Shown here in pieces: positions 483 through 62,562 of a DNA stretch of 64,000 nucleotides (the first letter of the stretch is position 1; the number at the start of each line of letters is the position of its first letter). Position numbers and translations under genes: made by a program. The notes beneath the pieces are model-generated. The model saw nothing but the letters and a program-made list of their open reading frames with translations, did no database searches and was not told the origin of the DNA. The stretch spans positions 12,569,432 through 12,633,431 of the forward strand of contig NC_092679.1 of the NCBI RefSeq assembly GCF_964355755.1, written 5' to 3'. This stretch comes from Antedon mediterranea. Lineage: Eukaryota > Animalia > Echinodermata.

Positions 483-497
483 TTGAAACAGTATCAA
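483..497 (+). CDS. candidate 15-nt neurexin microexon (SS1-equivalent), x-E-T-V-S
   Basis: Poly-T tract + tccacgcTGCAG | TTGAAACAGTATCAA | GTAAGT. Length divisible by 3 and open in phase 1, the phase of the next exon. Confidence 0.7.
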
Positions 498-1597: not shown

Positions 1598-1931
1598 TTA
1601 TTTATTTATTTATTTGACTTCTCACTAACTCAGTTAGTGAAGGATCTGAACCAACAGGTGGTAAACACCTCTAAAACGGTCCAGTCCCAATTTGCACAGT
1701 GGCTGTGTGTGACAGTGGCTGTGTTTGTGTGTACTAGTACACTGGGGTAACCCCCTACTCATCTCGAAAGATGTACTAGGTTCTTTAAAGTGTGCATGAG
1801 CTATGTGTACACTGGACCTATGGTTTATAGTCCTTATCCGAGAAGACTCGTTCTACCATCAGAACCATGGAGCGAGTGAGCCTCGAACCCTTGCCGATGT
1901 TATGGATACGTAATTACGGTTCCACTCACTC
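1598..1931 (-). mobile_element. tRNA-derived SINE with Deu/Nin-like central domain
   Basis: B-box GGTTCGAG, TCTCGGATAAGGACTATAAACC...TTAAAGAACC...GAGTAGGGG core, (AAAT)n tail; second copy at 58476-58669. Confidence 0.7.
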
Positions 1932-2012
1932 ACAATGATTGGCAAGTTGGGTATAGAAGGATAAGTAAATGTTAAAAAATAGTGCCATTTTAAACTACTA
2001 TAGTGGTAGTTG

Positions 2013-2516
2013 AGGCCTTGTCTTGCTGTTCCACTGTGGCAGGCTTGTCTTGCTGTTCCACTGCGGCAGGCCTTGTCTTGCTGTTCCACTGCGGCAGGCC
2101 TTGTCTTGCTGTTCCACTGCGGCAGGCCTTGTCTTGCTGTTCCACTGCGGCAGGCCTTGTCTTGCTGTTCCACTGCGGCAGGCCTTGTCCTGCTGTTCCA
2201 CTGCGGCAGGCCTTGTCCTGCTGTTCCACTGCGGCAGGCCTTGTCTTGCTGTTCCACTGCGGCAGGCCTTGTCTTGCTGTTCCACTGCGGCAGGCCTTGT
2301 CTTGCTGTTCCACTGCGGCAAGCCTTGTCTTGCTGTTCCACTGCGGCAGGCCTTGTCTTGCTGTTCCACTGCGGCAGGCCTTGTCTTGCTGTTCCACTGC
2401 GGCAGGCCTTGTCTTGCTGTTCCACTGCGGCAGGCCTTGTCTTGCTGTTCCACTGCGGCAGGCCTTGTCTTGCTGTTCCACTGTGGCAGGCCTTGTCTTG
2501 CTGTTCCACTGTGGCA
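2013..2516. repeat. 28-bp GC-rich minisatellite, ~18 copies
   Basis: Unit AGGCCTTGTCTTGCTGTTCCACTGCGGC, nearly invariant. Confidence 0.97.
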
Positions 2517-5500
2517 AAAACCTAATATTTAAATTATAAATACAGCAGACATAAATAAATAGTGGGAAATTATTTTATTATGATTTTATACCCAATTTGA
2601 TTGAAGATGTCTGTAATTTCTTTGTACAAGTGTAAAATATTATTTGTAAACGATTCAAGGTGGAAAGAAAGTTACATACTTATTAATTTTGATGCCATTA
2701 TCAGCGTAGTCAAAATGAATTCACATATATCACATTAGAGAAAGATTTTAGCGCATAAAATATGGATAATTGTAATTGTAAGATAGAATACATATACAAT
2801 AATAACATTACATTATATAGTATTTGGAATATCATTTTGATATCTTTCTGAATTTCTTTTGTTTCTTTATGTTTCTTTAAAAGAGGATATAAATTGTGTT
2901 GTGATCAGCGGTGTGTGGCAGGTTGCCAATCTCAATTTCAGATTGATGCTGATGTAGACTAGTTATCGATCGTTTCATATGTTATGTAGGTCGCACGAAG
3001 ACAATTCATTCAAATGTTTACATGTAATAGTGGTATAGAAGGGATTGCTAGCAAAGTTTAACTTGCCACTAGCGTTCATGAGCCTTATACTAGGATTTTT
3101 GGAAGCAGAGGTTGAGTTTGCAATTAAGATTTCACTGCTGTCACCTAACAAATCCATAAAAAAAACTGATTTGAAAGCTGCTACTGATTTCTCTATAGTT
3201 CATGTAAATTTAGGCTACCTCTGTATTTTAATTTAACTGTTGTCATAATAATATTTTGTAGTAGAAGGAACCTTTGACATGACATACAGTATACAACAAG
3301 AAATATTTCTTACAAAAAACGCTGCTTGACATTTTAACATTAATCATTTTCTTTTGATTAATTTATGATTAATTATTAAAAAGATGTCCTTTAATTGCAA
3401 AGATACATACAAATCACAGATAGTTATTTAATTATGAATCACATGCCCATTTTTTTACTAGTTAATTGTATACACAGCATTTGAAAGAAGACATGTGTAC
3501 CTTTCCAACAATGTATTATTTGCCAACAAATATTAATCTACAAATTAAAAAATGGCATTTTAAAATGGTCAATTTTGAAATTTAATGTGCTGTAGCCTGT
3601 TTGTGTGTGACCTCAGCCTGAACTGTAGGCATGCAACTGAATACCCTCTAGAGACAAGGTGACTTCAGGATAGTACAAGTGAAAATTCTTCCACAATCAA
3701 CCAATCAAAGGGCAAGAATCCAAAATCGTTTAACCATGAGCCCTCATAGACTTTTCCCCCCAGAGGTTTTTTGGGTCCAGCTGGGACCTATAAATTATAG
3801 TTGAGTTTGGAAATTCGCACCAACTGTCGGCCTTAGATACTAAAACTACCGCTATGAAACAGCTTATTAATGAATATGTCCTCATAGGACATAGCTGGCT
3901 AAAGCCATGGCGCGAAAAAATAAGTAAACATTTCCCGTAATACATTATGAAAATATAATAAGAAGTTGTTGGAATTAGGACCCGTTTTTACTGAGCATTA
4001 AGAATACAGATTTCAATAGTGTATTTTCTTGCCAATAAAAACTGGTCCATAAACAGAATTTTGAATAAGGTTTTAAAAATCCCAATTGATTCCAACAAAA
4101 ATGGAATCACAGTTTCAATCATTAAATGGTACAAACATTTAACTACTTTCAAACAAAACCAATATAAAAAACCAATTAAAAATTGTTATCTTTATTATAA
4201 AAAGAACTTCAAAGAACTATTATATAGTTGTTTTGTAGTTTTTCAGTAGAAATAGGCAGGCACTAAATGAATCCTACAGCTGACACTGATTCGGTGGTTG
4301 CGTAGGAGGTAATGGGGCACTGGACATTTGAGAGAAACAAAAACTAGATTCTAACAGGCCTATTATACAGTGATTTTGAAAATAGTATTGGCACTAATAA
4401 TTCCTAGTCAATTTTGTTAAGCCATACATAAGATTCTACTTTACAAATTTAATCTCTTTAGATTTTCTTTATTCATTATTTTTTATCGATTTTATATTTC
4501 TTGGTGACAACTGACAGATAGACTGTTTCTTTTGAATGATACAATAGGACTATGAATATCAAATTCATTTATTTAAAATTCTATTCATTTTTTATTGATT
4601 TTTTATCTTTGTCCATTTTTTTTATCTAGGTAATCTTAAAATTTCTTGTAGCAATGTATTTATTTTGTCTGGTTTTAATCTGGTTTGGAATAAAATCATT
4701 TTGTGAATTGTCACTTTTGGTTTAAGTGATGCATTCTCTGAACCAGTTCAGTAGGCATACTATTAATTCCGAAAATCTTTTTTGATTTGTTTAAGATAAA
4801 TAGATTGATCCATTGTCATCTTTAATTTGTATAAAATAAAATATTTGTAAACTGTGGTAGCAATCAACGTATACCCAGTTCTTAGTGTCTGGTGCCATTG
4901 GCATCTGAAAAAGAGTATACAGTACGTATTTAATCATAGGCCATCTTTTCTGTTTTTTATTTTTAGATTTAAGTGACATTGTCAGAATGAATCCCTTTCT
5001 ATAAGAGATGTGCGATAGTAATACAATAGAGATATATTAAGGGGACAATATTGATACCCAACAAAGTGGTCCCTAAATAGTGGTGACCACTCAACAGTGG
5101 TTAATCATAGACATGTTGCCCCTGGAAATTTTCCCCAGTGGCGTAATGTAGGAGAAACGGCCCCTGGTTTACAAGCATTGCTAAGGGGCCTGCCAACGCT
5201 AGTTGCAATGGGCTGCTCATGCTCTGAGACCCCTTAAGGTTTAGCCAGTGAGCTGTCCTTTGAACAGAGCTTAACCAAAGGATGGGTTCTACGATATATA
5301 TAACAATTATAAAAGACACTGGCTTATTAGTCTCCTGCCAAATCACCTCTGAACTGAAATTTAGTGGTAAGCATATGAAACAAGGTTTGCTATTACATCT
5401 GCTTTTTTCAAAACAAAGATCAAAGTTATTGTTGCCTCTGTTCTGTAATGACTGAGATCCCTGTCAAATAGGAAATTACTGTTGTGTAACTTTTGTGTAT

Positions 5501-17661: not shown

Positions 17662-18161
17662 ATTTTTATAGTTGTATGTATTGTATGTTAATATTATGTT
17701 AATATGCTGGTTGAATAAATAAACAAAATTAAATGAAAGGATAGGGGTTGTCTGTAGTTTTAAAACATATATTGCTCCTCGTTCACTATTACAGTGAACT
17801 GTCCCCTTAATTGAGGTTCAATTCAGATTCAAATGTATACTCACATAGACTGTGGGATTATTTGAATTAAAATAGGCTAGGCCAACTAGAGGCAGGTACC
17901 TGGTAGCCTATGCCAGATTATGATGTTGGATCATATGAATTATTATTTTCTTCCATAGCTACGAACTAATCCATTTTATATTGATCACTTCTTTTTTGAT
18001 CAATTCAATTTACATGCTATTTTAATAATACTATTCCATGTTTCACTTATCATCTTATGTTTTTATTTTCATCATATTCTTTTATTTTAATCATTAGAAT
18101 TAGAATCTATTATTTATGTTCTTCTGTTTATTTTATTCACTTTCATTGACGCTGCCGACAG

Positions 18162-18194
18162 TACCAAGCTGCCCATATGAGTCTCTTTGTGGAC
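18162..18194 (+). CDS. candidate 33-nt neurexin microexon (SS1-equivalent), x-PSCPYESLCG
   Basis: Long pyrimidine tract + gacgcTGCcgacAG | TACCAAGCTGCCCATATGAGTCTCTTTGTGGAC | GTAAGC. Open in phase 1; GC-richer than the flanks. Confidence 0.7.
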
Positions 18195-21100
18195 GTAAGC
18201 TTATTGATCTTAAAAATCTTTTTTCATGTTTCAGCCTGCCTGGGTTATTTTTTTCATTGTCACTTTAGTCCGCTAGAAAATCTAGGCTTCACATAACACA
18301 ATGTTTTTAACATGCTTGCTAAAAATGCTTTTGGTTTATATTTTAATGGTAATGGGTTCAATTTGTGGTGTTCTTTATTTTTTTCTTAAACGTATTCATT
18401 AAAAAAAGTCATTTCATTTTGTGTCATGGTAAATTTATTGTAACTGTATTTTTCGGTGGTTGTAAAAGATGATGTAACACAGCGCCGATTGCTTATCTAA
18501 ATATTTATCTTTTGCGCAATATCAAAGTTGTGTTTGTCTGCGGTTGCTATATCCATTTTGACATTTCATTAATTGCTCATCATAATATTTTTTTACTGAC
18601 CATAGCTGACATATATATTTTTTAACACAAAAGCTTTGAAATCTCTTTCTTGTAATAAATCTAGTATTTTTATCTAGTCTCGTTTTAAATGTGGTTGAGG
18701 GTACGTTGTTGGCATATTTTAGATGTGTGCATGGGTATCATAATTTTTGGTTTTCCGCACTTTGTGGATAACATTTGAAAACATTGTCACCAGACGAGAC
18801 ACATAGCATGATGACACTGATAGTGTCAAGCTTGAATACGGAATATATATAATTAACGTGAGGCCCAAAAATAAGGTTGCGTAACAGGCCCAAAAATATA
18901 GGGTAGTCAGGTAGGTAGGTAAAAACGAATAAAGAAAAAACCACTGTATCATTTTACTAAATACACATCAATCATGCCATCAAATATATCTTTAAATATC
19001 AATGAAAACTATTGACTATAGATAACCTACTAATTTTGTTTTCAGAAATACGTTTTATATTTTTTTTTATAATTTTAGACAATTTTACTTATTTTTGCCA
19101 AAGATACAATGTCTATTTCATGCATGACTGGTTCCGTTTATTAAGACAGATTCATTTCGAGACAGTTATATATATTAACACCTAACAACATATTGTAACA
19201 CACTGGGGACTTGGCCCATCTACATTATAAGCTTAAGACATAATAATTTAAATTTTAAGATAGCTTTCGTTTTTCTCCTGGGAAATAGAATAACAAAGTA
19301 GAGATGTTGGTAAAATTTTATGTATAGTCTTAGTGCATCAAATAATAATCTGAACAACATAAAAACATTAAACTAACTTGAATTTGAAATAGGATAGATA
19401 ATTTATATTTCATATTTCAATTTTGCTTGAATATGTTTACATGATATATTAATATTTAGTGTAGACCTAGGTGATGCCATACACATAATGTGTTTTACAG
19501 AAGGGAAGGTGGCGTCAATATTGTCTTGCATTCTGTGAAATGGAACAAATGTGGAATATAGCTGAAGTCGGGCACAGTCTTCAATTGTGTCCTACAGTAT
19601 TTCAAAATTATTAGGTTCAGATGTCTTATTAATATCATCCGATCAAGGAGATATAAATATTTTATTTATACCTCCATGGTCTAACCCAATATTAGATTCG
19701 ACTGTGCTGTTTTGAGCAGATAATCGGCGGCTCCACAAACTCTTCACTGTTTATATGCGAGCAGTGGGAGTTGATTACTGTAAGGTGGTTGCGAGTGACC
19801 TACTGGCAATTATTACTGTTTTCTTTTAATAATGATCTTAAACTTGTATCATTATGCCAAATTTGATTCCTTTTACGGGTTGATTAAACTTTAACAAAAA
19901 ATGCTACACTTAGGTTTTGTAAACTTCAGCAGATGAATGCCTTTCAAGGTCTCTTAATATCAATTAAAACAAATTAATTGACAAATGGAAACAAAAGACT
20001 AAATACAATGCATGGAAGAACGATAAAGGCTGCAACAATTAATTGACAAATACAAATTATATATAATAAATATGTCAAAGACCATTGTACATTTGATAAC
20101 TTCTTTTGGATACTGTTGTACTATAGTGGTGTAATATAATAGTGAGCTTTCGACCGACAACCAAATTACGTCATTAGTTCATTGTGCGCATGCGAAAATA
20201 TTGGGACCCTTTTTACCTTGACACAGGTTTAATGGTTTGTAGGTCCAGGCCAACAACATTGACTGACCTATCAGTTCCATTTTTCTTCTGTAATTCACTC
20301 ACTTTTCAATCAATTGTGAGGCCAAAACAAATGGAAGACTCTTAATTTGTATTAAAGAATTCTGGCAAAAACAGAAAGACAATTAATGCAGCAACTACAC
20401 AATGTCAGGCTAGGCCTATAGCTAGCGTATAACATTTTTTTTATATTTTATTTTTTAAGCACTGATATCTTTAATACCTAGTAAGAAGCAAATAGAGAAC
20501 CTGTTGCAAAAACTTATTTGTACAAGAATTTATGGACTGAAATCGGGACTGAAATTTCAAAATAACATCTAAATTACATAATGTAGTCTTTCAAAAGGGA
20601 CTATGTACAAATTATTTTACTGCAGTAACAGCATTTTGCTTACTCTTTAACCTGTTTATGCAATTATAACTATTATTGTTTAGATAACCATCAACGGTTT
20701 ATTGTAGTGACTGCCTCATAAACCTCTACATTGAAAGAAATTAAAAATCATATGTAAAAAAAATTACTAAAAAAATGTTACTGCATTAACTGCAGTAGAA
20801 TCATTTTGACATGATCCCTACATTGACATCTATTGATCAATTTTACTTGTAATTTCCAATGGTAATGTAATTTTGATCAATTCAAAGATTGCACAGTGTT
20901 AAAGGAAAATCCTAGTTTCCAGCCAAACTGTTCAGAAAGCTCAAATCACAATTTTGTATTTGATTAATATTGTCAATCTGCATAAAATAGATTTGCTTTC
21001 CAATCAAATTTCTATAATTACACAGAAAACATAATCCAAATATTGTGATACTGTAAGTCCGGTCAGAGAGAAAGTTTATATTGCCTTTAGGAGTAATTAC

Positions 21101-22339
21101 TTTATTTAGATATCATGATAGTAACAAATATAAATTTTATATACACACCTTCTGATTGGGTTTAGGTGGGCATGATATGTTTACTACCCGCATAAGAATC
21201 TTTATTATAGACAAACATTTCTATAAATAATTATGTTTGTCTTTATAATAAGTATTGGTCTAATACCATACAAACTTGGAAAGAAGCTCACTGGGCTTAT
21301 TTTCTGCTTTGTTGGGTTGTAAAATTGACAGGAAATATCAAAAATACTATAATTGAAGTAGCAATTCAAAAAATCCTAAAAACCCATGGGCTTGTTTTCA
21401 AGGTTTTACAGTATACAATTTAACTTTATTTTACAAAATGTTTTAATTAAGATTTAAGAAGTGAACTAATGAAAACCTATAATTTTGTATTTTCTATGAA
21501 TAACAAACACTGTTTAGTATAATTTTATTTTTATTTAATTGGTAAATAGTTTCCAGTTGGTTGGTTTAGCATGGGGAATTTTCTACTTTCTATGGACATT
21601 TTTTTTAATGTTCTTGATATTGTGTCGTCGTTTTTTTGGTCAAATACTAAATAGTTGTGAATTAACAGAAAGCTAACATTTCATTTTCAATTTTGCAGAT
21701 AACCTTTTCTTGTTTTTAATGTTGTATTGTTTTTTATTTTATGCCATTAAATTTTATAAGTGATTTTGTCCAGTTTAAGTACTAAACATTTTTGTTATCA
21801 TGTTTTCCCAAAGTTACAATTTTTACATTCTATTTGCTTATTTTTATACAGATATTTATACTTGTATCAGTTAATGTAAAAGGTTTAGAATACATTGATT
21901 TTTCTTATTTTTCATACTTGGTGAATAATGCTTTTCAAACAAGGTTGTCAATATTTAGCTGATGTCTTTATAGATGCCAATTTGTACTTATTATCCAATC
22001 ACAGATATTTATATGTCTATGATTAAAAGCATTTAGCCAATTCGAGGCAGCCTCGAACAGGAGCGATTAACATTTTTTTTCATTTGAACAGGCCATCATT
22101 TGAAAGTGTATGGTAATAAAAATGATATGAAATTAATATTGTTTAAATAAAAAAAGTATATATATATAATATGATTAGAGTCTTGGTTGGGGCGACTTTT
22201 TCTCATTCTAAAAGATTTCCTCATCTCTATTATTTCAAATTAATTAATTAAATTTCAGTATATCACCGGGTGGTTTAGAATTAATGTTCTTTGCCTAATG
22301 TGTTTATATATATAAAAGTATCTTTTCTGAGATCCCGCT

Positions 22340-22670
22340 TCGTGAATAAAAATACTGATTAGATGAGGGCGTATCAATTTGATCTCTGGTGCGCGTGCAT
22401 ACAATTGAGGACTAGTGCTGTTCCGCCGTACCACGCCGAGAATGTTAAAGAGTCACTATCCAATCGAGTTTGAACAATACCATGAAAGCCCCAGTGGTCT
22501 AATGGTTAGAACAACTGCATATCAAGCAGACAGTCCGAGTTTGAGTCTTGGTTGGGGCGACTTTTTCTCATTCTCACAGATTTCCTCATCTTTATCGTTT
22601 CAAATTAATTAAATCAATTTCAGTATATCTCAGGCGGTTTAGAATTAATGTTCTTTGCCTAATGTATTTA
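22340..22670 (+). mobile_element. family B TA-flanked repeat with an internal tRNA-like sequence
   Basis: Partial copies at 22177-22305 (+) and 10111-10194 (-); all adjoin (TA)n. Confidence 0.7.
22488..22559 (+). pseudogene. tRNA-like sequence (Asp-like, ATC in anticodon position)
   Basis: 72 nt. GCCCCAG/TTGGGGC acceptor stem, A-box TGGTCTAATGG, CTGC-ATATCAA-GCAG arm, CCGAG-TTTGAGT-CTTGG T arm, then TTTTT. Confidence 0.6.
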
Positions 22671-22724
22671 TATATATATATATGTTTAGAATTATTTTCT
22701 ATGCCTAATGTGTTTATATATATA

Positions 22725-23663
22725 TGTAACCCAGGTTTGTTTCCGCAACTTTATAATTAATCTTAACGAATAAATATAGCGCAAACGTAACTCAAATACA
22801 AAAACATCAGAACATAAATTTAAATGGAACAAAACACGGTTTATTCGACCAAACTAGAATAAAATAAAAATAAAACAAAAGAGAACGGAAAGTATGACTT
22901 ATCTAAGGCGCCGATAAGGTTATTCAAGATAAGGTAGCTACCGCTTCCAACGGCGACCTTGACCTCCGTCTTGCGTTTTTCGCCTTACGGTAGATGAATA
23001 CAGTTGATTTATATAGCAGTCTATACAAATAATTTCGGTGTCCGAGAACCAGTGGTTCTTCGGTAGCCTATACAAAGAGCCAATATTCAAAATAAAACGA
23101 ACAGTCTCCAATATGTACAATACAGTCGATCAAATATAGTTTTTTAGTGCAATATGCCAAACTAGCACAAACTTCCAATCAATGCGAACTTAAAACTTAG
23201 TTCGGTAATGTAAACTTCCAATCAACGCGAACTCAAAACTTAGTTCGGTAATGTAATTATACTGTAGTACATTAAAACGTAAGTTAGCTTTAAATAAAGT
23301 CATATATTTTAATATGTAACACTTAGAAATGACCAGCACTTCAGATGGCATAATCAGAAAAAGAGAATGAAACATGGGAACATACCCTAATATTGGCCTA
23401 GTCACCTGACCAAGGCTAATGCCATTGGTCAATCCATGTTGCTGGGGAAAAAAAGCAAAGGGTAAACTGGCCCTTATTGGCCAGTGTCTAAAAAACAGAA
23501 AGCTCTCATGCATTACCACATAGTTTATGACATAATGACATAAACAGCAAAGGAAGTTCTAACAAAAAGATAAACAACTAATTAAAACTTGGGCTTAACA
23601 ACAAAGAAAGGATTAAAAGATTATAAAATCTAATAAGGAAAACATGGTAAACCATGGCAGGGT

Positions 23664-23667
<4 letters not shown>
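22725..23667 (-). mobile_element. probable solo LTR inserted in (TA)n
   Basis: TGTAACCC...GGGTTACA termini, 943 bp, internal ~43-bp tandem duplication at about 23170-23255, AATAAA on - strand. Confidence 0.7.
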
Positions 23668-23713
<46 letters not shown>

Positions 23714-23776
23714 CGAAGAATATCAAATGTAATAGAAGAAGATGCACTTTTTTTTATGTGACAAACCAGCGTTCCT

Positions 23777-23827
23777 TTACTTACAGTTTCGTTACTCGAC
23801 ATTCCTTGTATGTCATCTTCAGAGTAA
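23777..23827 (-). ncRNA. degenerate hammerhead-like motif
   Basis: UUACU CUGAAGA UGACAU-ACAAGGA-AUGUCG AGUAAC GAAACUGUA AGUAA. Extra bases before GAAA; lies near the long (TA)n at 23667-23710. Confidence 0.45.
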
Positions 23828-24048
23828 CAGTTAAGCAAACTGCACCATATGTGGCATAAACTTTACGTTGGTTTGTCTTATTTTCTAGTTGAATTTACAG
23901 ATCAGATCAATATTTTTTCTCAAATAAATAATGGGTTTTATTTACTTTCAATAGATAAATTGGTAGTTTGGCAACAAAGAGCAATTAAGAATAATTTTAA
24001 TTAACAGTTGAATAATTTTAATTAACAGTTAATTAATTTAAATTTTAG

Positions 24049-24344
24049 CTAAAAAGACAGCTGCTGGAACATTTGATGGAGATGCATATTTTTACTACGA
24101 CCTCAGCAATGATGGTATAGACAGCAGCAATGACGATATCACGTTTGAATTCCGAACACAGCATACAACAGGACTTATACTCGGTGCAAAACACCAATAC
24201 GACTATTTGTATGTTGGGCTGTCAGACGGTCACTTGCATGTTAAGTACAATGTTGGAAGTGGGGCGTTTGATCGTAAGATGGGCTGGCAGTCTTTGGCTG
24301 ATAACAGTTGGCATCGTGTCAACATTAGACGTACGTCACAAGAG
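24049..24344 (+). CDS. NRXN: alpha-neurexin exon, N-terminal part of LNS2 (laminin G) domain
   Basis: ttttAG acceptor, GTAAGT donor, phase 1 to 0. Reads KKTAAGTFDGDAYFYYDLSNDGIDSSNDDITFEFRTQHTTGLILGAKHQYDYLYVGLSDGHLHVKYNVGSGAFDRKMGWQSLADNSWHRVNIRRTSQE, matching recalled neurexin LNS2 ([31 protein letters not shown]...NLGSGAFE...DNAWHDVKVTR). This frame is absent from the ORF track. Confidence 0.95.
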
Positions 24345-24795
24345 GTAAGTGTAAAAAATAGCTTGTTTTTGTAGATATAAAGTACAATAGAAACTAGGAA
24401 CATTCCTATTAAGCCATTGCAAATAAATTAACATAAAAGTGCAAAGAGTGTGTTATTTATCCCAAACAATTAACTCCCTCCTCCTTTTAAGAACAATTAA
24501 ACTGGTTGTAATTTATTTGTGAGTATGAGATATTCCATGTAGTAATTGTCTGGAGAGTAAATGTCTAGGGTTAGTTGTATCTTTCTAATTCATTCATTCT
24601 GCTTTCATTCATTCTGCTTTTATTCAATATTTTTCTTTGCAGTATATATAAAATAAAACTGAATTGCGAGAGATTTACATATAAAATTGGTACAAGCTTT
24701 CAAACATCAAAATTTACAACATTAAAAAGTTAAAAAGTTAAAAAAAATATTTTTAAAAAGGAGATATTACACATGGAAGAAACTGATGAAAGTAC

Positions 24796-27700
24796 TTATT
24801 ACTTATTATTATTATTATTGTTGTGTTTATTTTGGTTTATTAATTAGTCTACACAGTGCTGGGAAACATGAGTTGTTGAATCTTTTAGTATTGCCATATA
24901 TTTCACTTTGCTTCTTAGCATTCCTAAGTATCCTGCCACACGTTTCGCCTCTCAATTTAGGAAGTGCGTTAGGAACGATTTTGTTAAGATTTTTAGCAAA
25001 ATCAAGAAGAATATCTTCTCTTCTTTGATCTAAAAATTTAAGATTAAGTAGTTTAATTGCTTGATCATAGGATGCATATTCTTGTCCGAGAATTATTCTA
25101 CATGCGCGTTTCTGTATAGATTCAAGCTCCATGGATTGTGCTATGGTTAAGGCAGAGTGCCATACCGGACACGCATATTCAGTTACAGGTCTTATGTGGC
25201 TAATATACATTTGACGCAGATGGTTACAAGGCATTCCAAATCTTTTTAAACATGTCAACATATGTAATCTCTTACTGGCTCTATTAACAACATCGTGGAT
25301 ATGCATATTCCATTTCAGATCATTAGTGATCTGAACCCCAAGTAACTTTAAGCATTCAACATTGGTTATTTTTATATTATTTATCGTAAATGATTTAACA
25401 ATGGGTTGAGATTTGGTAAAAGAAATGTTCATAAAGTTAGTTTTTTCAATATTAATTATCATATTATTGTCTTTGGTCCATTGTGATAGTTCGTTTAATT
25501 GATCTTGAACATTAGGCAGGGTTTTCTTGTTGTGAACTTCACATATTGACAAATCATCTACATACTTCCACCGATTTGGGAAGTCTCTAAGCGAATTGTT
25601 AACCATTACTTGGAAAATTAAGGGACCCAGTTTCGTCCCCTGAGGAACTCCGCAAGTTATTCCTTGCCAGTTTGAAAAACCGCCATTGAGTTTCACTCTC
25701 TGTTTACGTTCGCTCAGAAAATCACAAATCCACGGCATCAATTCAGGTTGAACTCCAATATCAATTAACTTCTTGACAGCGATTGTATGATCAATTAGGT
25801 CAAACGCTTTACGAAAATCAACTGCAATAACCGTTGCTTCGTGTCCAGGTTTATCAAGACCTTGAAGTAAATAGTGTAACATGCTAGTAAGATAGTGACT
25901 TGTAGACGCTCCTGTGCGATTTCCAAATTGCATTTCGTCTAATTTAGGCGCGATCTTGGGTTTTATCCATGACGAGACAAAGTGTTCTAGCATGCGTACA
26001 AAAATTGGTGTAACGGATATGGGTCTGATTTGATTTAAGTTAACCGGTCCTTTCACTTTAGGAAGTGGGGTTATGGTCGCCTCTTTCCACTTGCGCGGGA
26101 CTATGCCTTGCGAGAGTGATGCATTGTAGATGTCAACTAACGGTGATGCAATTTCAAATGCGAATTCTTTGATGACGCGAGGCGGTAGATCACCCGGGGC
26201 AACTGATTTGTTGCAGTTTATTTTCTGAAGCTGATGATACACCTGCCAGAAGTTGAGTGTCGGTGCATAGCCACAAGGAAGGTATGATGGTAGACTATTA
26301 GTTTGTAGGGGTTCAATCTTCTGGCATATATTCGCTAGGTAGTTATTTATTAGTTCGCAAATTTTTAGCGGATCGGTTTCTTCAGTTTCTAGATTCAACA
26401 CCGATTTCTTTTTATTCGTACCGCATATTTGGTTAACTTTTTGGAACCACTGCTTTGCGTTAGTGTTTTGCAGATTGTTAACTTCGTATTTGTAGTATTT
26501 AATCTTTGCTTGTTTGATTTCTCAAATTACTTGGTTTCTAAGTGTACGGAAATGGCGGGACATTTTTCCATATTTATGAAAGCTAATTTGTCTCTCCTTA
26601 CAAAGTCCTTTTTTTTTTGGTGTGATCCATGGTTTGTCATTTGAATGAACTTTAATTCTGCGCTTTGGAAAACAACGTTCGTATGCCAGACATAATGTTG
26701 ATTCGAAAATATTTACTTTTTCATCAAGGTCGTCGGTTTCCAGTATTTCATGCCAATCTTGTGATGTTATCCATTGACCAAATCTATTGCAAGCAGATTC
26801 GCTAAAAGGCCGGAAAGACTTAATAACATTGCGGCCCTTAATGCAGACGAATCCAGGTTTTGGTTTCCATAAAATCGAATTATGGTCACTACGACCAAAG
26901 GGTGCATGAACAACCGGTTCTTCGTAATGTTGATAAAAGTTAGTTATAAGCAAGTCCAGAATATTACCACTGTTGTCCCTAGTTGAAGTTTTGACAACTT
27001 GTCGAAGACCAGTTGACGAGCAAAATTGTTTAACTTTCGCGCGGGCTTCGTTAAAATCACCGCTAATGAGAATCGCCGCTGACGGTGATGATGTTCTAAT
27101 GCTGTCAACGGATTCTCTTAAATAACGAAGAAGTGTTGTTTGTGTACTAACTGGTTGTCCAGGGCTGTAATAAATAATACACAAATGTAAGGATGACATG
27201 ATCCGTGGCGTTTTTGGTAGCGATACTTTAATCCACATACCTTCCAGAACATCTGGAATAGGAATAGGATTGATTGTGCGAGCTTTGATAGTATCCTTAA
27301 TTAGTGCAGCTACGCCACCCCCTATACGATCACTCCGTCCACTACTAAAACAAGAGTATCCGTCGATATTAATTTTGTGTTCGTTTTCTTTATTAGTCCA
27401 TGATTCACTAAACAGGCCAATGTCAATATGTTTATCTTCCAAATACATAGAAATTTCATCAATCTTATTCATTATAGACTATGGATTTGTAAGCATAACT
27501 ATTGGAAACTGACTAGGCTTACCTTTCCGCTGTTCATCTATTACGCTATAAGTGGTGGATGCTTTTTGTAACGTTCGTAAGTTGTATAGGTTCCGCGTCC
27601 TCTTTTCGATACCGGTAATAGGCCTACAGTTCCATGTATAACGATTAGAAGTCATTACACGTATTCGCCTTTTTGTTCCACCGCGAACTCCCCTCCGTCT

Positions 27701-28004
27701 CCAACGCTTACGTTGTTCAACAAATGGGAACTTGGTATGCGGCGGTGCACCTGTGTTGAGCTTGAATGCATTCCTTGCATACAAGACTTGTTTGCGTAAC
27801 ACTGCCTGATTGGTACGGCTAAACATTTCATACAGTAATACGGTAGCACCAAAAACACCAAACAACACCAAAAATACCCTCAAAACGATATCAAAATGAA
27901 ACAGAAATGTTAAAAAATGATGAAACAAAAGTTATACACAGTACAAAAACCACATATATACGTATATGCTGGTCGGAGAGCCGCTAAATTAGCGCTGCCG
28001 AGTC
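24796..28004 (-). mobile_element. near full-length non-LTR retrotransposon (single ORF APE+RT; Rex-Babar/CR1-L2 group)
   Basis: APE motifs (FSESW, GGGVA, SGDFN, LDLLITN, SDH), RT motifs (DFRKAFD, GVPQGTKLGP, KYVDD), C-terminal TKRFNNSCFP, (AAT)n tail right after the stop. Possible AAGTAC TSD (24790-24795 / 28005-28010); 5' boundary tentative. Confidence 0.92.
24827..27928 (-). pseudogene. LINE ORF (~1033 aa) with two in-frame nonsense codons
   Basis: ORFs 27479-27928, 26522-27472 and 24827-26401 are in one frame: MLTNP*SIMNK (TAG) and RNQVI*EIKQAK (TGA). Confidence 0.88.
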
Positions 28005-31089: not shown

Positions 31090-31239
31090 GTGATAGTTAC
31101 AATTAATGACACGTTGACAGAAAAAGGACAAACAGGAGGAGATTACTCAACATTAACAATAACGACAAGGTTCTACGTTGGTGGAATCGACAATACAGAT
31201 TTTGGAGATGTGGACAACTTTAGGGGCAATATTAGACAG
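31090..31239 (+). CDS. NRXN: alpha-neurexin exon, LNS2 continuation
   Basis: tttatAG / CAG-GTAGGT, 150 nt, phase 0-0. VIVTINDTLTEKGQTGGDYSTLTITTRFYVGGIDNTDFGDVDNFRGNIRQ resembles [32 protein letters not shown]...NFMGCLKE. Confidence 0.95.
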
Positions 31240-49144: not shown

Positions 49145-49321
49145 CTTTTCTTCAGTGGTTCAAAGATAGAACTTGCACTGTTAGAACTTGCTGAAGCTAA
49201 GGATCCAAGGATAACGGTGATGGGTAATTTGGTTATTGGCATTGAAGATGTTGAAGAGTTGGACCCTATAACTTTCAGGACTCCTGAGTCGGTCTTGATT
49301 GTTCCAAAGTGGGAAGCAGGT
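49145..49321 (+). CDS. NRXN: alpha-neurexin exon, end of LNS2 and start of LNS3
   Basis: tttcAG / GTAAGT, 177 nt, phase 0-0. LFFSGSKIELALLELAEAKDPRITVMGNLVIGIEDVEELDPITFRTPESVLIVPKWEAG contains the neurexin LDPITFxTPES...PKW motif. Confidence 0.95.
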
Positions 49322-51738
49322 GTAAGTATACAGAACATGTAGGCCTACTAACAATTATTTATCTTATATTCCAGCACAGATCTGACAATTCAAGTATTTC
49401 GTTTTTCAACTAACTATGGACCTTAAACTTACGTCATTTTAATTTCTAAATTACACACTTTTAACACAGTTTTGGTGGACTCTATGCTTAGAACAACGAT
49501 GTGACACAATATGCATAGATCAGAGGTTCTAGATTGTTGATAATGGAAAGCTGCCTCAGATTTTAACATAAGTCAATACATTTTTGTATCTAGTAATTTA
49601 ATACTAACATAGAAATTTACCTGTAATTTATAATCATAATATTATGTTAAGTAGCTATGATGTATGTCAGGGTTGTTTCCCACAGACAATACGTTTTTGT
49701 TTTAAATATATGCCTACTTCTTGATTTGCCACCTGCTTGACTCTCGCACCTAGGTACCCCAGAGCCTATATTGGAGAGACGATAGCAGCATTTAATGATG
49801 CTGAAAGAAAAACAAATTTAATGTTCCTTTTTGGTCAGTATTTCATTATGGGGATGATGGAGTGTGTATGATATTACATCCTCTGTTATCAATTATGCAA
49901 AGGGGTATTTTGTTTGACGCCATAAAAAATTAAATCTGTAGAGGGTGGTCAACCTATACCAAATTAGATGCTTTTGGGAAAAACTTAAACATAAAATATC
50001 TCTAACAGACTCCACTATAAACATTGTGGATACAGTTAATATGCATGTCTTATGATGAAATAAAAATGTTGAACCAATACAGACCTAAGACTCGGTATAT
50101 TAAGGTTTTCATAAAAAAAAACATATTCTTACAGCAACGCTGCCGGGAATGTAGAGGTTTAAGTGACGATACTTTTGAGGAGGTGAATATAAATGGGTGT
50201 GCATGAGGGAATAATTTTGTTAGAAAAGCAAATTGAATTTGTATGCAGGGTATGTTGAGTAAACAATTAACAAGCAATTAATACATTTTGAAACTAATGG
50301 TCAGGGTGAGGTAATCATCATGGGAATGGTAATGGGTACATTTGCATGATAACGTATGTTTGGCATGCAAGCAATAATAAAATGTAAACCGGTAATTTAA
50401 AAAAGGTTAATATGTTAGGTAAAAAAGAAGGTTGAACAGGTTAGCATGCAAGCTGGGTAATGCTAAACATTCAAAAAGGTTAACTAGAATAGACAATAAT
50501 TGGGGTAAACATGTGATATAAATCTAAACAGGTTAGGCCATAACAGAGGGATTAACAGATTAACAAGCAACATGGCTATGGTAATCGAAGTTTAAAAAGT
50601 AAAGGGTAACAGGTTGGGTAATAAAAAGAAAAGTCAATGGTATAAAGTAATACAAAGAAGGATAAACAGGTTGGCTGTATGGTGAACAGGTGAGAAAATA
50701 AATTAAAACAAGTATTGAAAGAATTGGTTTAAATTGGTTTTAGGTAAGCGGGAGGGTGAACAGATAAGGTCAGGTAGATGTATCTTCCTGGTTAGGTTTA
50801 AAAAGAAATGTTTGAACTGCTGTAGAGAAAGTTTGTTCCATTTCATTTGGCATTATTCTTCGGAAATAGAATAGCATTTAAACATTGACCTCAGGTTTCC
50901 TGGTGGATACCTATCTGAAACACATTAATGTGAAGATTCACTGAATCAATGACACATCAGGTTTGGTCTGAACATCTCCAGTTCCAGTGATTGGAACTGT
51001 TACTATCAATCAAATGTAAATCTTCAAAGTTGTGCTAGGGTAGTTTGCATTATTGATGTTATATCAATATGGCTTTATTTAACCTGTTAACTGAGTTATT
51101 ATAAAAGCATGTTGTTTAAATTTTCAAAAGGATAAAAAAACTGACTAATAGATATGCTGTCATTTATACACACAAATATAAATTAAATATGAGTATCTTA
51201 TCTTAAGTGTTTAAACTAAATAAATGATCCCATAGAATTTAAATTTCTTATTGTACTGAAAAATTAGTGGAGCGATAAAAATCTTTCTGATGTGCAAGTT
51301 TGTACACAGATCTGTGTGTATATATTCAACAGCTTAATTATTATACAAATAATTAATGTTTTCATTCGTGCAATGGTAGTTTATGAAAGATACTTTCAAT
51401 TGATTGAAAGAAAACAATATTTGTTAAATAAATCAGTTTAGTAGCAACTGAGAGTTGGGGTTAGTCCATTATATTTAACCAGAAATGCATGGCATATTTA
51501 AATGATATATACAGTATAAAATACTTTTCATGTGATCTAAAAACCTCCAATCAAAGACCTTCTTACAGTAGGTGCTACAAAATTAATATTTGAATAAATT
51601 ACATAGCCTATTTAAACATGTGATTGTGATTGTCCGAAATGGAATCACTTACCCTTTATTCCGAGGAACAATATTGTTACCCGGGCAATATAACTTGATA
51701 AAAATATAGTTCTCTCAGGAATATATATATATATATAC

Positions 51739-52155: not shown

Positions 52156-52395
52156 GGAAGAGGTTCGTTGTCATTCAGCTTCCGAACTATTGAACCTAAT
52201 GGACTACTGATGTACAGTAGAGGAGCTGAAATCAATGGAGATTTCTTTGCTGTTGAGCTATTTGAAGGTCGATTATTTGTTATAATCAACTTAGGCGGTG
52301 GTATGACACGCTCCATGCCTTACATGAACCTGTTTAATGATGGTAGTTGGCACAATGTGGTTATAACAAGGATGGATGTTATTACAAAAGTCCAG
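52156..52395 (+). CDS. NRXN: alpha-neurexin exon, LNS3 core
   Basis: attAG / CAG-GTGAGT, 240 nt, phase 0-0. GRGSLSFSFRTIEPNGLLMYSRG...DFFAVELFEGRLFVIINLGGG...NDGSWHNVVITR matches GSISFDFRTTEPNGL...DFFAIEMLDG...NDGEWYHV. Confidence 0.95.
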
Positions 52396-52800
52396 GTGAG
52401 TTCCTAACTATCTTGCCTACGAAGAGATTGTTTAATCATGGTAGTTGGCACAATTTAGGTATAACAAGGATGGATGTTATTACAAAAGTCCAGGTGAGTT
52501 CATAACTATCTTGACTACGAAGAGGTTGTTTAATGATGGTAGTTGTCACAATGTTATAACAAAGATAGATGTCAGTACAAAAGTCCAGATAAGTTTCTAA
52601 CTATCTTGCCTACAAAAAGGTTGTTTAATGATGGTAGTTAGTCTAATTTAGGTATTACAAGAATGGATGTCAGTACAAAAGTCCAGGTGAGTTTCTTACT
52701 ATCATGACTACAAAGAGGTTGTATAATGATGGTAGTTGGGACAATGTGATTATAAAAAGGATAGGAGTCCATGCAAAAGTTCTGGCAAGTTCCTACTATG
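52331..52800 (+). repeat. five tandem ~98-bp copies of the exon 3' end plus splice donor
   Basis: Copies start at about 52331, 52429, 52527, 52622 and 52720. Confidence 0.92.
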
Positions 52801-56834: not shown

Positions 56835-57656
56835 TTACATAGTTGAATGTGTATTGACTAATGAACAAGAGAGGGAGACTTTTCATTTCATAAATGTGAA
56901 TTTTGAAATAATTATTATACTTGCAGTTTAATGAAAATAAAAGTAACTGTTAAACATCTTCCTCTAGAAAAATTTTCTTTGAAAATTTTTTTTAAAATTA
57001 TTACTAGTTTTATCTCTTTTCTCAAACATTTACAACTCATTATTATATGGTCATGGGTTAAATTAATTTATTATTTGTTGTGTATTCTAATTGTTAGGTA
57101 CCGTATTGTTACATAGTTGAATGTGTATTGACTAATGAACAAGAGAGGGAGACTTTTCATTTCATAAATGTGAATTTTGAAATAATTATTATACTTGCAG
57201 TTTAATGAAAATAAAAGTAACTGTTAAACATCTTCCTCTAGAAAAATTTTCTTTGAAAATTTGTTTTTAATTATTACTAGTTTTATCTCTTTTCTCAAAC
57301 ATTTACAACTCATTATTATATGGTCATGGGTTAAATTAATTTATTATTTGTTGTGTATTCTAATTGTTAGGTACCGTATTGTTACATAGTGGAATGTGTA
57401 TTGACTAATGAACAAGAGAGGGAGACTTTTCATTTCATAAATGTGAATTTTGAAATAATTATTATACTTGCAGTTTAATGAAAATAAAAGTAACTGTTAA
57501 ACATCTTCCTCTAGAAAAATTTTCTTTGAAAATTTTTTTTAAAATTATTACTAGTTTTATCTCTTTTCTCAAACATTTACAACTCATTATTATATGGTCA
57601 TGGGTTAAATTAATTTATTATTTGTTGTGTATTCTAATTGTTAGGTACCGTATTGT
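56835..57656. repeat. three near-perfect ~274-bp tandem copies
   Basis: Copies start at about 56835, 57109 and 57382. Confidence 0.93.
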
Positions 57657-59348: not shown

Positions 59349-59721
59349 GTTGATGTGGCAGAATCAAAAACAATTGACAACAGAGATAATTCGAAGATTC
59401 TTAACCTGGAAGATGATTTATTCCTTGGTGGTGTGGACAACCGGGAAAATGCCAAGCCACTGCCAATGGAAGTATTTTCCATAACAAGGCAATCTGGATA
59501 CGTTGGCTGTATGCGTAACCTTGTCCTGAACGGCCTAGCTTACAATATCGCTGGTGAGGTTCAACAACAAGGAGTAGAAGGAATTAAGCCTATGTGCAAG
59601 AGTATGTCTCCTATGTGTAGCAGTGGGTTGTGTCGAAACGGTGGCCAGTGCTCAGAAGGCTGGAATCGATTTATTTGTGATTGTTCCATGACTGATTATA
59701 TTGGACATGTATGTGACGATA
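59349..59721 (+). CDS. NRXN: alpha-neurexin exon, end of LNS3 plus EGF2
   Basis: tatAG / GTAAGT, 373 nt, phase 0 to 1. SKILNLEDDLFLGG...GYVGCMRNL...GIKPMC, then six-Cys EGF CSSGLCRNGGQCSEGWNRFICDCSMTDYIGHVC. Confidence 0.96.
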
Positions 59722-62544
59722 GTAAGTTCATATGATTTTATTATTTGTAGTTTGCATGTTGAAATAATATTATCATCCATTTTTTTCTACAATTTTTGAT
59801 ATATATTTAAAATTCTACAGTTGATACATTCTAAAACTCTTTTTTATCAATATGAATAGTTTTATGTCTATGGTTTGATGTTTTTTATGTTCTACACAAT
59901 GTGTTTTAAAGTTACTCCTACATTATTTACCATTACTTACCGCTGTTTCTAGTTGAAAAAAGTACTTCAGAAAACATGGGTTCTTTCAAACCCTTTAACC
60001 CGGCTTGATCTGTAGCACAGGTAATGAATAAAATTAATTATAAGTAATCAATATAGATTATTTTTAATAAAAAGATAAATTAAATCAATCAATTTATTAG
60101 ATTATATCAATTAACTTTTATTATTTTACATAAAACTCAAATTTGATAATTGAGCATGATAACTATCACTCGTTTATCAAAAGTAAAATTGAAGATTACG
60201 AAAAATAATACCATCACTAATTTGGCAATTAAACAATTAAAAAACCCCATATATATTTGATTATATATTTATAATTGTTAATAAAAATCCAAAAATAGTT
60301 CAAACTAATCAACAGTGATTAACCAATAATTGTTCTTGTTCACACTGGACTTTAAAAATTATAAATTCATACATTGTACTTTTTACTCTTTTTTACACTT
60401 ATTTCACACAATATTTACATGATATGTTTACCATGGTTTTACCAAAATTTAACTGTATATTTAGAATTTTTATTTAAGTATGATTAGTGTTTCTGAAACT
60501 GTGGAAAGTTCCACTTAGCAGTCTATAGGACTATGTAGCCAACGTTCAAATTAAGCCCTGTTTTTACTTGGTTTCTCTCAGTCTAGTAAAATCAAGGCTT
60601 ACCCCTCTGAGTAACATCTCGCATCTCCTACAATTAAACAGGTCATAAAAATAATATTAAACAAAAACAAAATTGTACATCGTACGAAGATACAACATTG
60701 ACAATATTTATTTTTACAGTTATTATTTTATTGTTTTATGGAATGTTATTGTTTAATTTAGCTTCATATTATTTTATTGAAAAATGTTTTTGTCCTCATG
60801 TTTTCAAATCAGTGTTCATATGATGTATTTATTTCATCTTTGCTTGACATCTACATTTGTATACTTGTGCATGTTTTTCTTTCATACTTGGAGTTTGATA
60901 GATTTGGCAAGCATTCACTTTTGATCAGTTGCGTTCTGCATCATATGAGTTCTATTTATTAGATATGCCATACCATTTTCATTATTTTATCCCATGATCT
61001 TTGATGGAACAAGTGACAGTTACATGTTGTGTTTTAAGATCAATAAAAAAAATCACAACACAAATAACATGGAAACTGTCTTTAAGATTTACAGTGATTT
61101 TTTAAATTAAAATAATATTCTTTTCTTCATATTTTGTAAAACTTTTAAAACAAATCAATGCATTTTTATGAAACATTAAAAATAAATGTTAGCAAAAAAT
61201 AGAACCCAGATTTTCTAATTGCCAAAAATATTACCAAACCAAGATTGATGAGGCAATAAATGCCGCAATTCATTTCTGTTGTTTTATTGCAAAATTAGGA
61301 TCTATAACTTTTAAAAGCTATTACACATAAAATCTAATACAAATTCATTATAAATTAAATTTTATTTTATTTTACAAAAAATTGCATTAGACTTAAATAT
61401 CAAAATTTCACATATCAAATTAAGAACACATTATTCTACATTATATTCAGCCAATTCTTGTGCAGTATCATGTCTAGAGACTATAAACAGTTTGCCATAT
61501 TGTGTCTACCGACAACAAGGCCCAACCATTATACATAACTTTTAAATGTTGAATTTACAAAAAACAAGCAACATTTCTGAAAAACAGTCAACAGTGGCTT
61601 GTAAAACATTGACATAAAGCTTATAGCTTATATTATCCCATATGGGATGAAGCTTGCTGTCAGAAGATGCGATACTGCATGAATTTATTGATGCAAAGGC
61701 ATGATAAAGGTGTTATTTATTTTAGGTAATATATAGAAATGTTATTAACCCAAAATCCAATTTTATCAACTATAAAGTCACCCAATATCTGAAATTGCTT
61801 GATCCTATTGCTAAATATAGTCGTGTTGGTAATGTTATTTTCAAAGTAAAACGAATTATTATTCTAGGCTTTGAGAACTCTGATTTTCCCTTGTTCCATC
61901 GAAAATATCATGTGTTAAACTTTTTTCCAATTATAACTAATTGTATCATTATCATTTTCGTAGCTCAGAATGATCTAATTCTTTGCATTTTTTGAAATAG
62001 AATAAATCATAATAAGCTTAATTCAGTGGCACATATAATATGGTACTGTATACAAATTTTGATAAACTTCTTATAATGTTCTACCTTAAATATTCATATA
62101 GAGTGCTCATATTTGACGGTAATCTAATAAAAAATAAATTCAGATTCAATCTGTACATGTTACATATTAGGCCTAAAAAGGTTGTTATGCTGCCAAGCAC
62201 ATCATTTGGAAAAGCAGGGTCTGTTAGTTTTGTTTTTACGACATACATATGTTACGGTGCACTACCAGTATTGTTACAAAAGTATATTGCAAGGCAAAGA
62301 TTTGAAATTTAAAAAAAAAGAGGCATTATACAAAATTCAACCAATTTAATGCTTTAAATCCAGAAGTTAAATTTTGGGTTGGTGGGCTTGGGAACATAGC
62401 AATTTTAGGCCTTTAAGGTGAGGTAAGAAGTACTTATGAAGCCATTGAATTACGTTTAAATTTTGGTTGCTTCTTCTCTTTGTCTGCTTTACTCTATTTG
62501 CACTCATTTTTTCTGCCATTCTTTGTGAATTCATCTCATAAAAG

Positions 62545-62562
62545 TTCCTGCATGGGGACCAG
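62545..62562 (+). CDS. candidate 18-nt neurexin microexon after EGF2, IPAWGP
   Basis: About 75-nt pyrimidine-rich tract with four TGC motifs, aaAG | TTCCTGCATGGGGACCAG | GTAGGT. Open in phase 1, matching the phase-1 donor at 59721. Confidence 0.6.

What the first reader, a model, noticed from the sequence alone, without database searches (positions are those of the whole stretch)
18100..18200. 33-nt two-cysteine microexon candidate at the neurexin SS1 position
Seen: pyrimidine tract, UGC 5 nt upstream of the exon start, 33-nt phase-1 open exon and GTAAGC donor. It would insert xPSCPYESLCG just before LNS2. Known: vertebrate SS1 is a cluster of tiny exons between EGF1 and LNS2, and UGC near the 3' splice site marks Srrm3/4 (eMIC)-dependent neural microexons. 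Inference: a switchable disulfide loop (C-x5-C) in the EGF1-LNS2 hinge, unlike the Cys-free vertebrate SS1 inserts I recall.
Basis: partly seen in the sequence, partly recalled or inferred. Interest (0 to 1): 0.8.

Follow-up and report, generated by a model that had tools for sequence, protein, structure and literature searches.

The report
Feather-star neurexin two-cysteine microexon
A 33-base exon hidden in a feather-star neurexin intron is spliced into the messenger RNA and conserved in a second feather star; it likely belongs to the known "splice site 1" cluster and is unusual in carrying two cysteines predicted to close a small loop, but whether it is ever skipped is untested.

Summary
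The exon is real. Window 18162-18194 (33 nt, AG...GTAAGC, phase 1) reads xPSCPYESLCG. A spliced contig from public run X1 joins its last 30 nt to the LNS2 exon at 24049. The gene is the single alpha-neurexin of a crinoid (100% match to an Antedon mediterranea RefSeq protein), whose model misses this exon. Anneissia japonica keeps it (VPSCPYEALCE, 9/11 identical, both Cys) in 4 of 4 models. A second candidate with UGC lies at 483-497. Optional inserts at this site exist in sea stars, a sea cucumber-like record, a hemichordate, amphioxus and vertebrates; 174 of 177 such linkers lack Cys. The scan found sea-urchin SS1 microexons before (e1-7880894). Not shown: skipping, neural or eMIC control, the disulfide (AlphaFold pLDDT ~47), and the upstream junction (EGF1 is outside the window). 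The only RNA assembly shows inclusion alone. Verdict: new two-cysteine variant of a known neurexin SS1 microexon; 'switchable' is unproven. Interest 0.38.

The parts
18162..18194 (+). 33-nt phase-1 coding microexon, xPSCPYESLCG, two Cys spaced C-x5-C
   Evidence: sequence; last 30 nt joined to the LNS2 exon in a spliced contig; Anneissia orthologue, 9/11
18104..18161 (+). 3' splice-site region: pyrimidine tract, possible branch-like TTGAC 18146-18150 (inferred), TGC 18153-18155, acceptor AG 18160-18161; also an in-frame ATG at 18116-18118
18195..24048 (+). 5,854-nt intron, GTAAGC...AG, removed in the spliced contig
24049..24344 (+). first exon of LNS2 (acceptor partner of the microexon)
483..497 (+). 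second SS1 microexon candidate, 15 nt, phase 1, xETVS, TGC right before the AG, GTAAGT donor; no junction evidence
1634..1660 (+). weaker third candidate, 27 nt, phase 1, xSEGSEPTG, CTAAC next to the AG, weak GTAAAC donor, no UGC; not above background
23419..23460 (+). first coding exon of the RefSeq model P0001; likely an annotation artefact standing in for the missed upstream exons
   Evidence: location; multi-copy depth, ATG base 23421 variant in all four runs; LNS2 is joined to 18194 instead
31090..31239 (+). second LNS2 exon, joined to 24344 in the same spliced contig

Best explanation
The 33-nt exon is spliced onto the first LNS2 exon of the crinoid alpha-neurexin and is likely the last member of a splice-site-1 microexon cluster, likely enhanced in neurons by an Srrm/eMIC factor through its UGC, and its two conserved cysteines are predicted to bond with each other and close a seven-residue loop in the EGF1-LNS2 hinge. 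Shown: exon boundaries, downstream junction, conservation in a second crinoid. Inferred: the upstream junction to EGF1 (directly or via 483-497), mostly-included behaviour in neurexin-expressing cells with skipping elsewhere, eMIC control, and an intramolecular disulfide that would shorten and partly stiffen a hinge that in vertebrates is unstructured and protease-sensitive.
For: Spliced contig joins 18165-18194 to 24049 and on to 31090; DNA control is contiguous. Anneissia: 9/11 residues and both Cys kept in 4 of 4 RefSeq models, conservation drops to 1/15 upstream of the acceptor. TGC within 25 nt of the acceptor in 2 of 9 acceptors examined, the two being 483 and 18162; two strong+UGC candidates in 24 kb occurred in 0 of 300 simulations (thresholds tuned afterwards). 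Optional phase-compatible inserts at this position in sea stars, a holothurian-like record, Ptychodera, amphioxus and vertebrates. Antedon LNS2 has no Cys at all, so the pair has no partner there. eMIC targets have UGC near the 3' splice site and long AG-exclusion zones, and the domain is bilaterian (PMC8797185, PMC12992808, 10.1101/2024.09.17.613571, passages). Most SRRM4 microexons splice the downstream intron first (PMC10250204 passages), which would explain why the Anneissia models and Asterias amurensis X5 extend the exon 5' into the intron.
Against: No skip junction was seen; the contig is unbroken at the LNS2 start (contigs drop rare variants). The positional counterpart in sea stars is present in all models of Asterias rubens (4/4), Acanthaster (4/4) and Patiria (2/2), absent from A. 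amurensis X1-X4. No crinoid LNS1-EGF1 could be identified (not in window; 6 unnamed hits, none assignable). The contig ends inside the microexon, so the upstream junction is unseen. UGC lies near 11 of 78 acceptor-like sites by chance. At 33 nt it exceeds the <=30-nt definition (PMC12992808) and longer exons need SRRM4 less. AlphaFold gives the insert no structure, pLDDT 47 over residues 1-10.
Confidence: 0.55

Rival explanations
1. The exon is a small but effectively constitutive exon of crinoid neurexin: always included, so the cysteine loop is a fixed crinoid feature of the hinge, not a switch.
For: Only the inclusion junction is seen; strong donor and 72% pyrimidine tract; the last sea-star SS1 exon is in 10 of 10 models of three species; 4 of 4 Anneissia models carry it, though these models lack all upstream exons and could not show a skip.
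Against: UGC and long AG-exclusion zone are found at the two microexon acceptors and not at the ordinary exons examined; length is a multiple of 3; inserts at this site are optional in every other deuterostome group sampled with several isoforms except the tunicate, which had none.
Confidence: 0.2
2. The exon is also, or only, the end of an alternative first exon: an in-frame ATG at 18116 begins a short hydrophobic leader, giving a neurexin that starts at LNS2 and lacks LNS1-EGF1.
For: In-frame ATG plus hydrophobic run upstream of the last SS1 exon in Antedon, in all Anneissia models and in A. amurensis X5; such a run occurs in 11 of 234 acceptor-like frames of the window; both crinoid annotations lack LNS1-EGF1.
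Against: Pyrimidine tracts translate to hydrophobic residues anyway; the two annotated cases are selected for having an ATG; upstream identity is 1/15; a good microexon candidate lies 17.7 kb further upstream (483-497); downstream-first splicing explains the 5' extensions.
Confidence: 0.1
3. The exon is real and regulated, but the cysteines do not bond with each other: they pair with cysteines of an altered crinoid EGF1, link two neurexin chains, or bond to a partner protein.
For: Crinoid EGF1 was not seen, so its Cys count is unknown; C-x5-C matches EGF C1-C2 and C2-C3 spacing, and a global aligner placed the peptide on EGF1 (forced by the truncated models); Anneissia LNS2 has one extra Cys; no model support for a loop.
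Against: Two Cys gained and kept together with an intervening Pro-Tyr-Glu in both crinoids fits a local loop best (inference); the extra LNS2 Cys is absent in Antedon.
Confidence: 0.13
4. Chance splice-site look-alike or pseudo-exon.
For: The Antedon RefSeq model omits it.
Against: Spliced junction and cross-species peptide conservation.
Confidence: 0.01

Closest known systems
Vertebrate alpha-neurexin alternative splice site 1 (SS1; NRXN1-3)
   Same: Same position immediately before LNS2, phase-1 small exons, apparent cluster of several exons.
   Different: No sequence similarity; vertebrate SS1 inserts are Cys-free and were described as unstructured and protease-susceptible (PMC3084293 passages); skipping is shown there, not here.
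Echinoderm, hemichordate and amphioxus SS1 inserts in public gene models (sea star 12-aa + 5-aa exons; holothurian-like 17 aa; Ptychodera 7 aa; Branchiostoma multi-exon cluster)
   Same: Same site; the last sea-star exon also starts with V-P after an in-frame T, so it may be the direct counterpart.
   Different: All Cys-free and acidic or Ser/Pro-rich; the crinoid exon is 11 residues with two Cys.
Srrm3/4 (Srrm234) eMIC-dependent neural microexons
   Same: UGC between pyrimidine tract and AG, long AG-exclusion zone, strong donor, frame-preserving.
   Different: 33 nt is above the strict size class; neural specificity and eMIC dependence untested.
Optional two-cysteine insert in insect neurexin between LNS1 and EGF1
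   Same: An optional Cys-pair insert next to EGF1 in a neurexin: present in Bacillus rossius X1, X2, X4, absent in X3; related segments in Schistocerca and Drosophila grimshawi.
   Different: Other side of EGF1, C-x4-C or C-x5-C in a longer 17-residue segment, no sequence similarity; seen here only in gene models, no paper read on it.

Membership tests
Alpha-neurexin gene | Downstream exons encode neurexin LNS2-LNS3-EGF2 | tested here: met
   100% to P0001 neurexin-1a-like; best PDB matches neurexin-1alpha LNS2 by sequence and fold
Alpha-neurexin gene | Signal peptide-LNS1-EGF1 upstream | tested here: inconclusive
   not in window; no genome held; no crinoid fragment assignable
Neurexin SS1 exon | Spliced directly onto the start of LNS2, in frame | tested here: met
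   Anneissia models; open frame
Neurexin SS1 exon | Spliced downstream of EGF1 | tested here: inconclusive
   contig ends inside the microexon
Neurexin SS1 exon | Alternatively spliced (a skip form exists) | tested here: inconclusive
   inclusion only in one RNA assembly, which cannot show absence
Microexon | Length <=51 nt (PMC10250204) or <=30 nt (PMC12992808) | tested here: inconclusive
   33 nt: meets the wide definition, fails the narrow one
eMIC/Srrm-dependent microexon | UGC near the 3' splice site with long AG-exclusion zone | tested here: met
   TGC at -9, zone 56 nt
eMIC/Srrm-dependent microexon | Neural-specific inclusion and dependence on an eMIC protein | not testable with these tools
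   no tissue-resolved reads, no minigene
Disulfide-closed loop | Both Cys conserved, extracellular | tested here: met
   2 of 2 Cys kept between the two crinoids
Disulfide-closed loop | The two Cys bonded to each other | tested here: inconclusive
   AlphaFold low confidence over the insert and no coordinates returned

The most novel reading that the evidence does not exclude
Crinoids turned neurexin SS1 from a floppy length adjuster into a chemical switch: an eMIC-controlled microexon adds a disulfide-closed (or chain-linking, redox-sensitive) element that fixes the LNS1-EGF1 arm against LNS2 or blocks hinge cleavage in some neurons, in a lineage whose LNS2 has lost its own conserved disulfide; insects would have reached a similar Cys-pair switch independently on the other side of EGF1.
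Probability: 0.25. Interest if true: 0.62.

Novelty: new variant of a known kind. Interest (0 to 1): 0.38.

Why it matters
SS1 is the least understood neurexin splice site: its vertebrate insert is unstructured (PMC3084293) and removing it did not change Vstm2 binding (PMC13728146 passages). A natural SS1 insert with a conserved Cys pair is a ready probe of whether hinge geometry or cleavage is what SS1 tunes. The finding also adds the earliest-branching living echinoderm class (recalled) to evidence that SS1 microexon clusters are deuterostome-wide, against a 2025 review's statement that extensive neurexin splicing appears exclusive to vertebrates (PMC12665717; already contradicted for the bee by PMC2570956). 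Practically it corrects two RefSeq models. The effect is lineage-specific and the switch is unproven, which caps the interest.

Tried and rejected
No whole genome is held, so the upstream LNS1-EGF1 exon could not be located. tblastn with 8 N-terminal queries and an HMM from 15 found no LNS1 or EGF1 exon in the window, only the paralogous LNS2/LNS3/EGF2 exons. A profile search for a stand-alone crinoid LNS1-EGF1 (128-427 aa) gave 6 unnamed hits, none assignable to a crinoid; word-limited, so no evidence of absence. The run finder listed no holder on record as RNA; the first, 19-kb lay was swamped by repeats and its truncated tables did not show the junction; the narrow lay did. X1 depth in bin 18144-18777 was 17.9 against 3-4 in two nearby bins; contig depth cannot show RNA level, so no conclusion (intronic polyadenylation considered, not supported: AATAAA occurs 1.8 per kb). 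A degenerate exon pattern found 0 matches in metagenome contigs. AlphaFold on the Anneissia insert+LNS2 with 15 sequences: LNS2 confident, insert not. The heptamer ACGCTGC shared by the two candidate acceptors occurs 5 times, all on +, against 1.05 expected, but it was picked after the fact and the other 3 sites give no convincing exon. Reading the peptide as an EGF1 remnant rests only on Cys spacing in a forced alignment. In one search the LNS2 acceptor was entered 2 nt early (24047); corrected. Literature: 10 searches listed no paper on crinoid neurexin splicing or a Cys-bearing SS1 insert; the library lacks most subscription journals, and supplements (for example microexon tables of Torres-Mendez 2019, not held or read) may list echinoderm SS1 exons.

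Full report
Observation. The sequence is as described: AG 18160-18161, a 33-nt exon 18162-18194, GTAAGC, open in phase 1 as xPSCPYESLCG. The TGC lies at 18153-18155, nine to seven bases before the exon; the 40 nt before the YAG are 72% pyrimidine and no other AG lies within 56 nt. A strict motif scan missed the exon. A relaxed scan, adjusted afterwards to include it, gave three phase-1 candidates in the 24 kb upstream of LNS2 (483-497, 1634-1660, 18162-18194), two with a strong donor and UGC; the 64-kb minus strand gave one candidate and none with UGC; 300 Markov simulations gave 1.26 candidates of any kind and 0.023 strong+UGC per 24 kb, and never two.

The gene. The exon at 24049-24344 is identical to a RefSeq protein named neurexin-1a-like of Antedon mediterranea (P0001) and begins LNS2. 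The window holds LNS2, LNS3 and EGF2 exons up to 59720 but no LNS1 or EGF1. P0001 omits the microexon and starts instead at 23419-23460, in multi-copy DNA whose ATG is variant in all four runs laid, likely an annotation artefact.

Direct evidence of splicing. Laying run X1 on 23720-24560 gave a 1,597-nt contig covering 24049-24346 whose 5' loose end is the last 30 nt of the microexon and whose 3' loose end is the exon at 31090; DNA run X2 crosses the same stretch in one unspliced piece. So X1 holds spliced RNA and the junction 18194->24049 exists. The contig ends inside the microexon, so what is joined upstream is not seen. It is unbroken at the LNS2 start and no second 5' end is listed: only inclusion is seen, in one assembly that can drop rare forms.

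Conservation. All four RefSeq models of Anneissia japonica neurexin carry VPSCPYEALCE directly before LNS2: 9 of 11 residues and both Cys, against 1 of 15 for the in-frame codons upstream of the acceptor. These models lack all upstream exons and extend the exon 5' into the intron to an ATG, so 4 of 4 says nothing about skipping.

The site in other animals. Sea stars have a 12-residue and a 5-residue insert here; the first is optional, the second is in all models of Asterias rubens (4), Acanthaster (4) and Patiria (2) and absent from A. amurensis X1-X4, while X5 has it with a 5' intronic extension. A holothurian-like cluster, Ptychodera and Branchiostoma show optional inserts; Clavelina and the protostomes sampled show none at this site. 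Of 177 full-length proteins with a recognisable EGF1-LNS2 linker (107 with an insert; the set is dominated by vertebrate isoforms and is not independent), 174 have no Cys, 2 have one and 1 has two, the last in a model that looks mispredicted. So an SS1 cluster is shared across deuterostomes and present in public models; the Cys pair is what is particular to crinoids. Insects offer an analogue: an optional two-Cys segment between LNS1 and EGF1. The crinoid, sea-star and holothurian-like LNS2 sequences examined lack the C-terminal Cys pair that the hemichordate, chordate and protostome sequences keep; Antedon LNS2 has no Cys.

Mechanism. Splicing: the acceptor matches the eMIC pattern (UGC near the AG, long AG-exclusion zone; PMC8797185 and 10.1101/2024.09.17.613571, passages), the eMIC domain is bilaterian (PMC12992808, passages), and TGC was found near 2 of the 9 acceptors examined, both microexon candidates, against 11 of 78 acceptor-like background sites. 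Most SRRM4 microexons lose the downstream intron first (PMC10250204, passages), which would account for models extended into the upstream intron. This is inference; no tissue or factor data exist here, and because neurexin is mainly neuronal (established knowledge) bulk RNA would show high inclusion under either a neural switch or constitutive use. Protein: two Cys kept together in an extracellular linker with no partner in LNS2 most simply bond to each other, closing seven residues. In vertebrates the SS1 insert is unstructured, mobile and protease-susceptible (PMC3084293, passages), so a loop would shorten and partly constrain the hinge. AlphaFold did not support or exclude it: LNS2 pLDDT mostly above 85, residues 1-10 mean 47, no coordinates returned.

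Rivals. Constitutive small exon (0.2); alternative first exon with a short leader from the ATG at 18116, seen in a similar form in three species but expected in 11 of 234 acceptor-like frames and selected for in the annotated cases (0.1); cysteines bonded elsewhere, since crinoid EGF1 was not seen (0.13); chance (0.01).

Novelty. Ten literature searches listed nothing on crinoid neurexin splicing or a Cys-bearing SS1 insert. A 2025 review states that extensive neurexin splicing appears exclusive to vertebrates (PMC12665717, passages), but bee neurexin splicing, including a site equivalent to SS1, was reported in 2008 (PMC2570956, passages). PMC13728146 and PMC3636136 were seen as passages. Verdict: a real, conserved, mis-annotated neurexin microexon; a new two-cysteine variant of the known SS1 kind; switching and the disulfide remain to be shown. 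Interest 0.38.

Noticed in passing
window 483-497 (+): Second SS1 microexon candidate, 15 nt, xETVS, TGC directly before the AG and a GTAAGT donor; no junction or orthologue seen.
   Followed up: partly
window 1634-1660 (+): Possible third SS1 exon, 27 nt, Ser/Glu/Pro/Gly-rich like other echinoderm SS1 inserts, CTAAC beside the AG but weak donor; not above background.
   Followed up: partly
window 50135-50182 (+): A 48-nt exon with a C-x2-C pair in RefSeq model P0001, absent from all four Anneissia models and the 10 other species aligned; prediction artefact or an Antedon-specific exon. The frame is open without it.
   Followed up: partly
window 52413-52689 (+): Three degenerate tandem copies of the 3' end of the LNS3 exon 52156-52395 just downstream of it (68-75% protein identity, one with a stop); could offer decoy or alternative donors.
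   Followed up: no
LNS2 exons 31090-31239 and 49145-49321; P0001, P0003, P0125, P0128, P0132, P0317: The six echinoderm LNS2 sequences examined lack the C-terminal Cys pair kept in the seven hemichordate, chordate and protostome sequences examined.
   Followed up: partly
P0115, P0163-P0165, P0170, P0172: Insect neurexins carry a two-cysteine segment between LNS1 and EGF1, optional in Bacillus rossius models.
   Followed up: partly
window 24827-27931 (-): Long minus-strand open frames (564, 318, 150 aa) in multi-copy DNA; a stretch seen resembles a non-LTR retrotransposon reverse transcriptase (motif recalled, not tested).
   Followed up: no
P0002-P0005; beyond window 59721: Anneissia models differ by further small inserts after EGF2 and inside LNS4, and P0001 has a counterpart after EGF2; the scan found no such exon in 59720-64000.
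   Followed up: no
window 2010-2525: GC-rich tandem repeat giving long open frames on both strands.
   Followed up: no
window 56865-57530: Three near-identical copies of an intronic segment about 274 nt apart (repeated hits).
   Followed up: no
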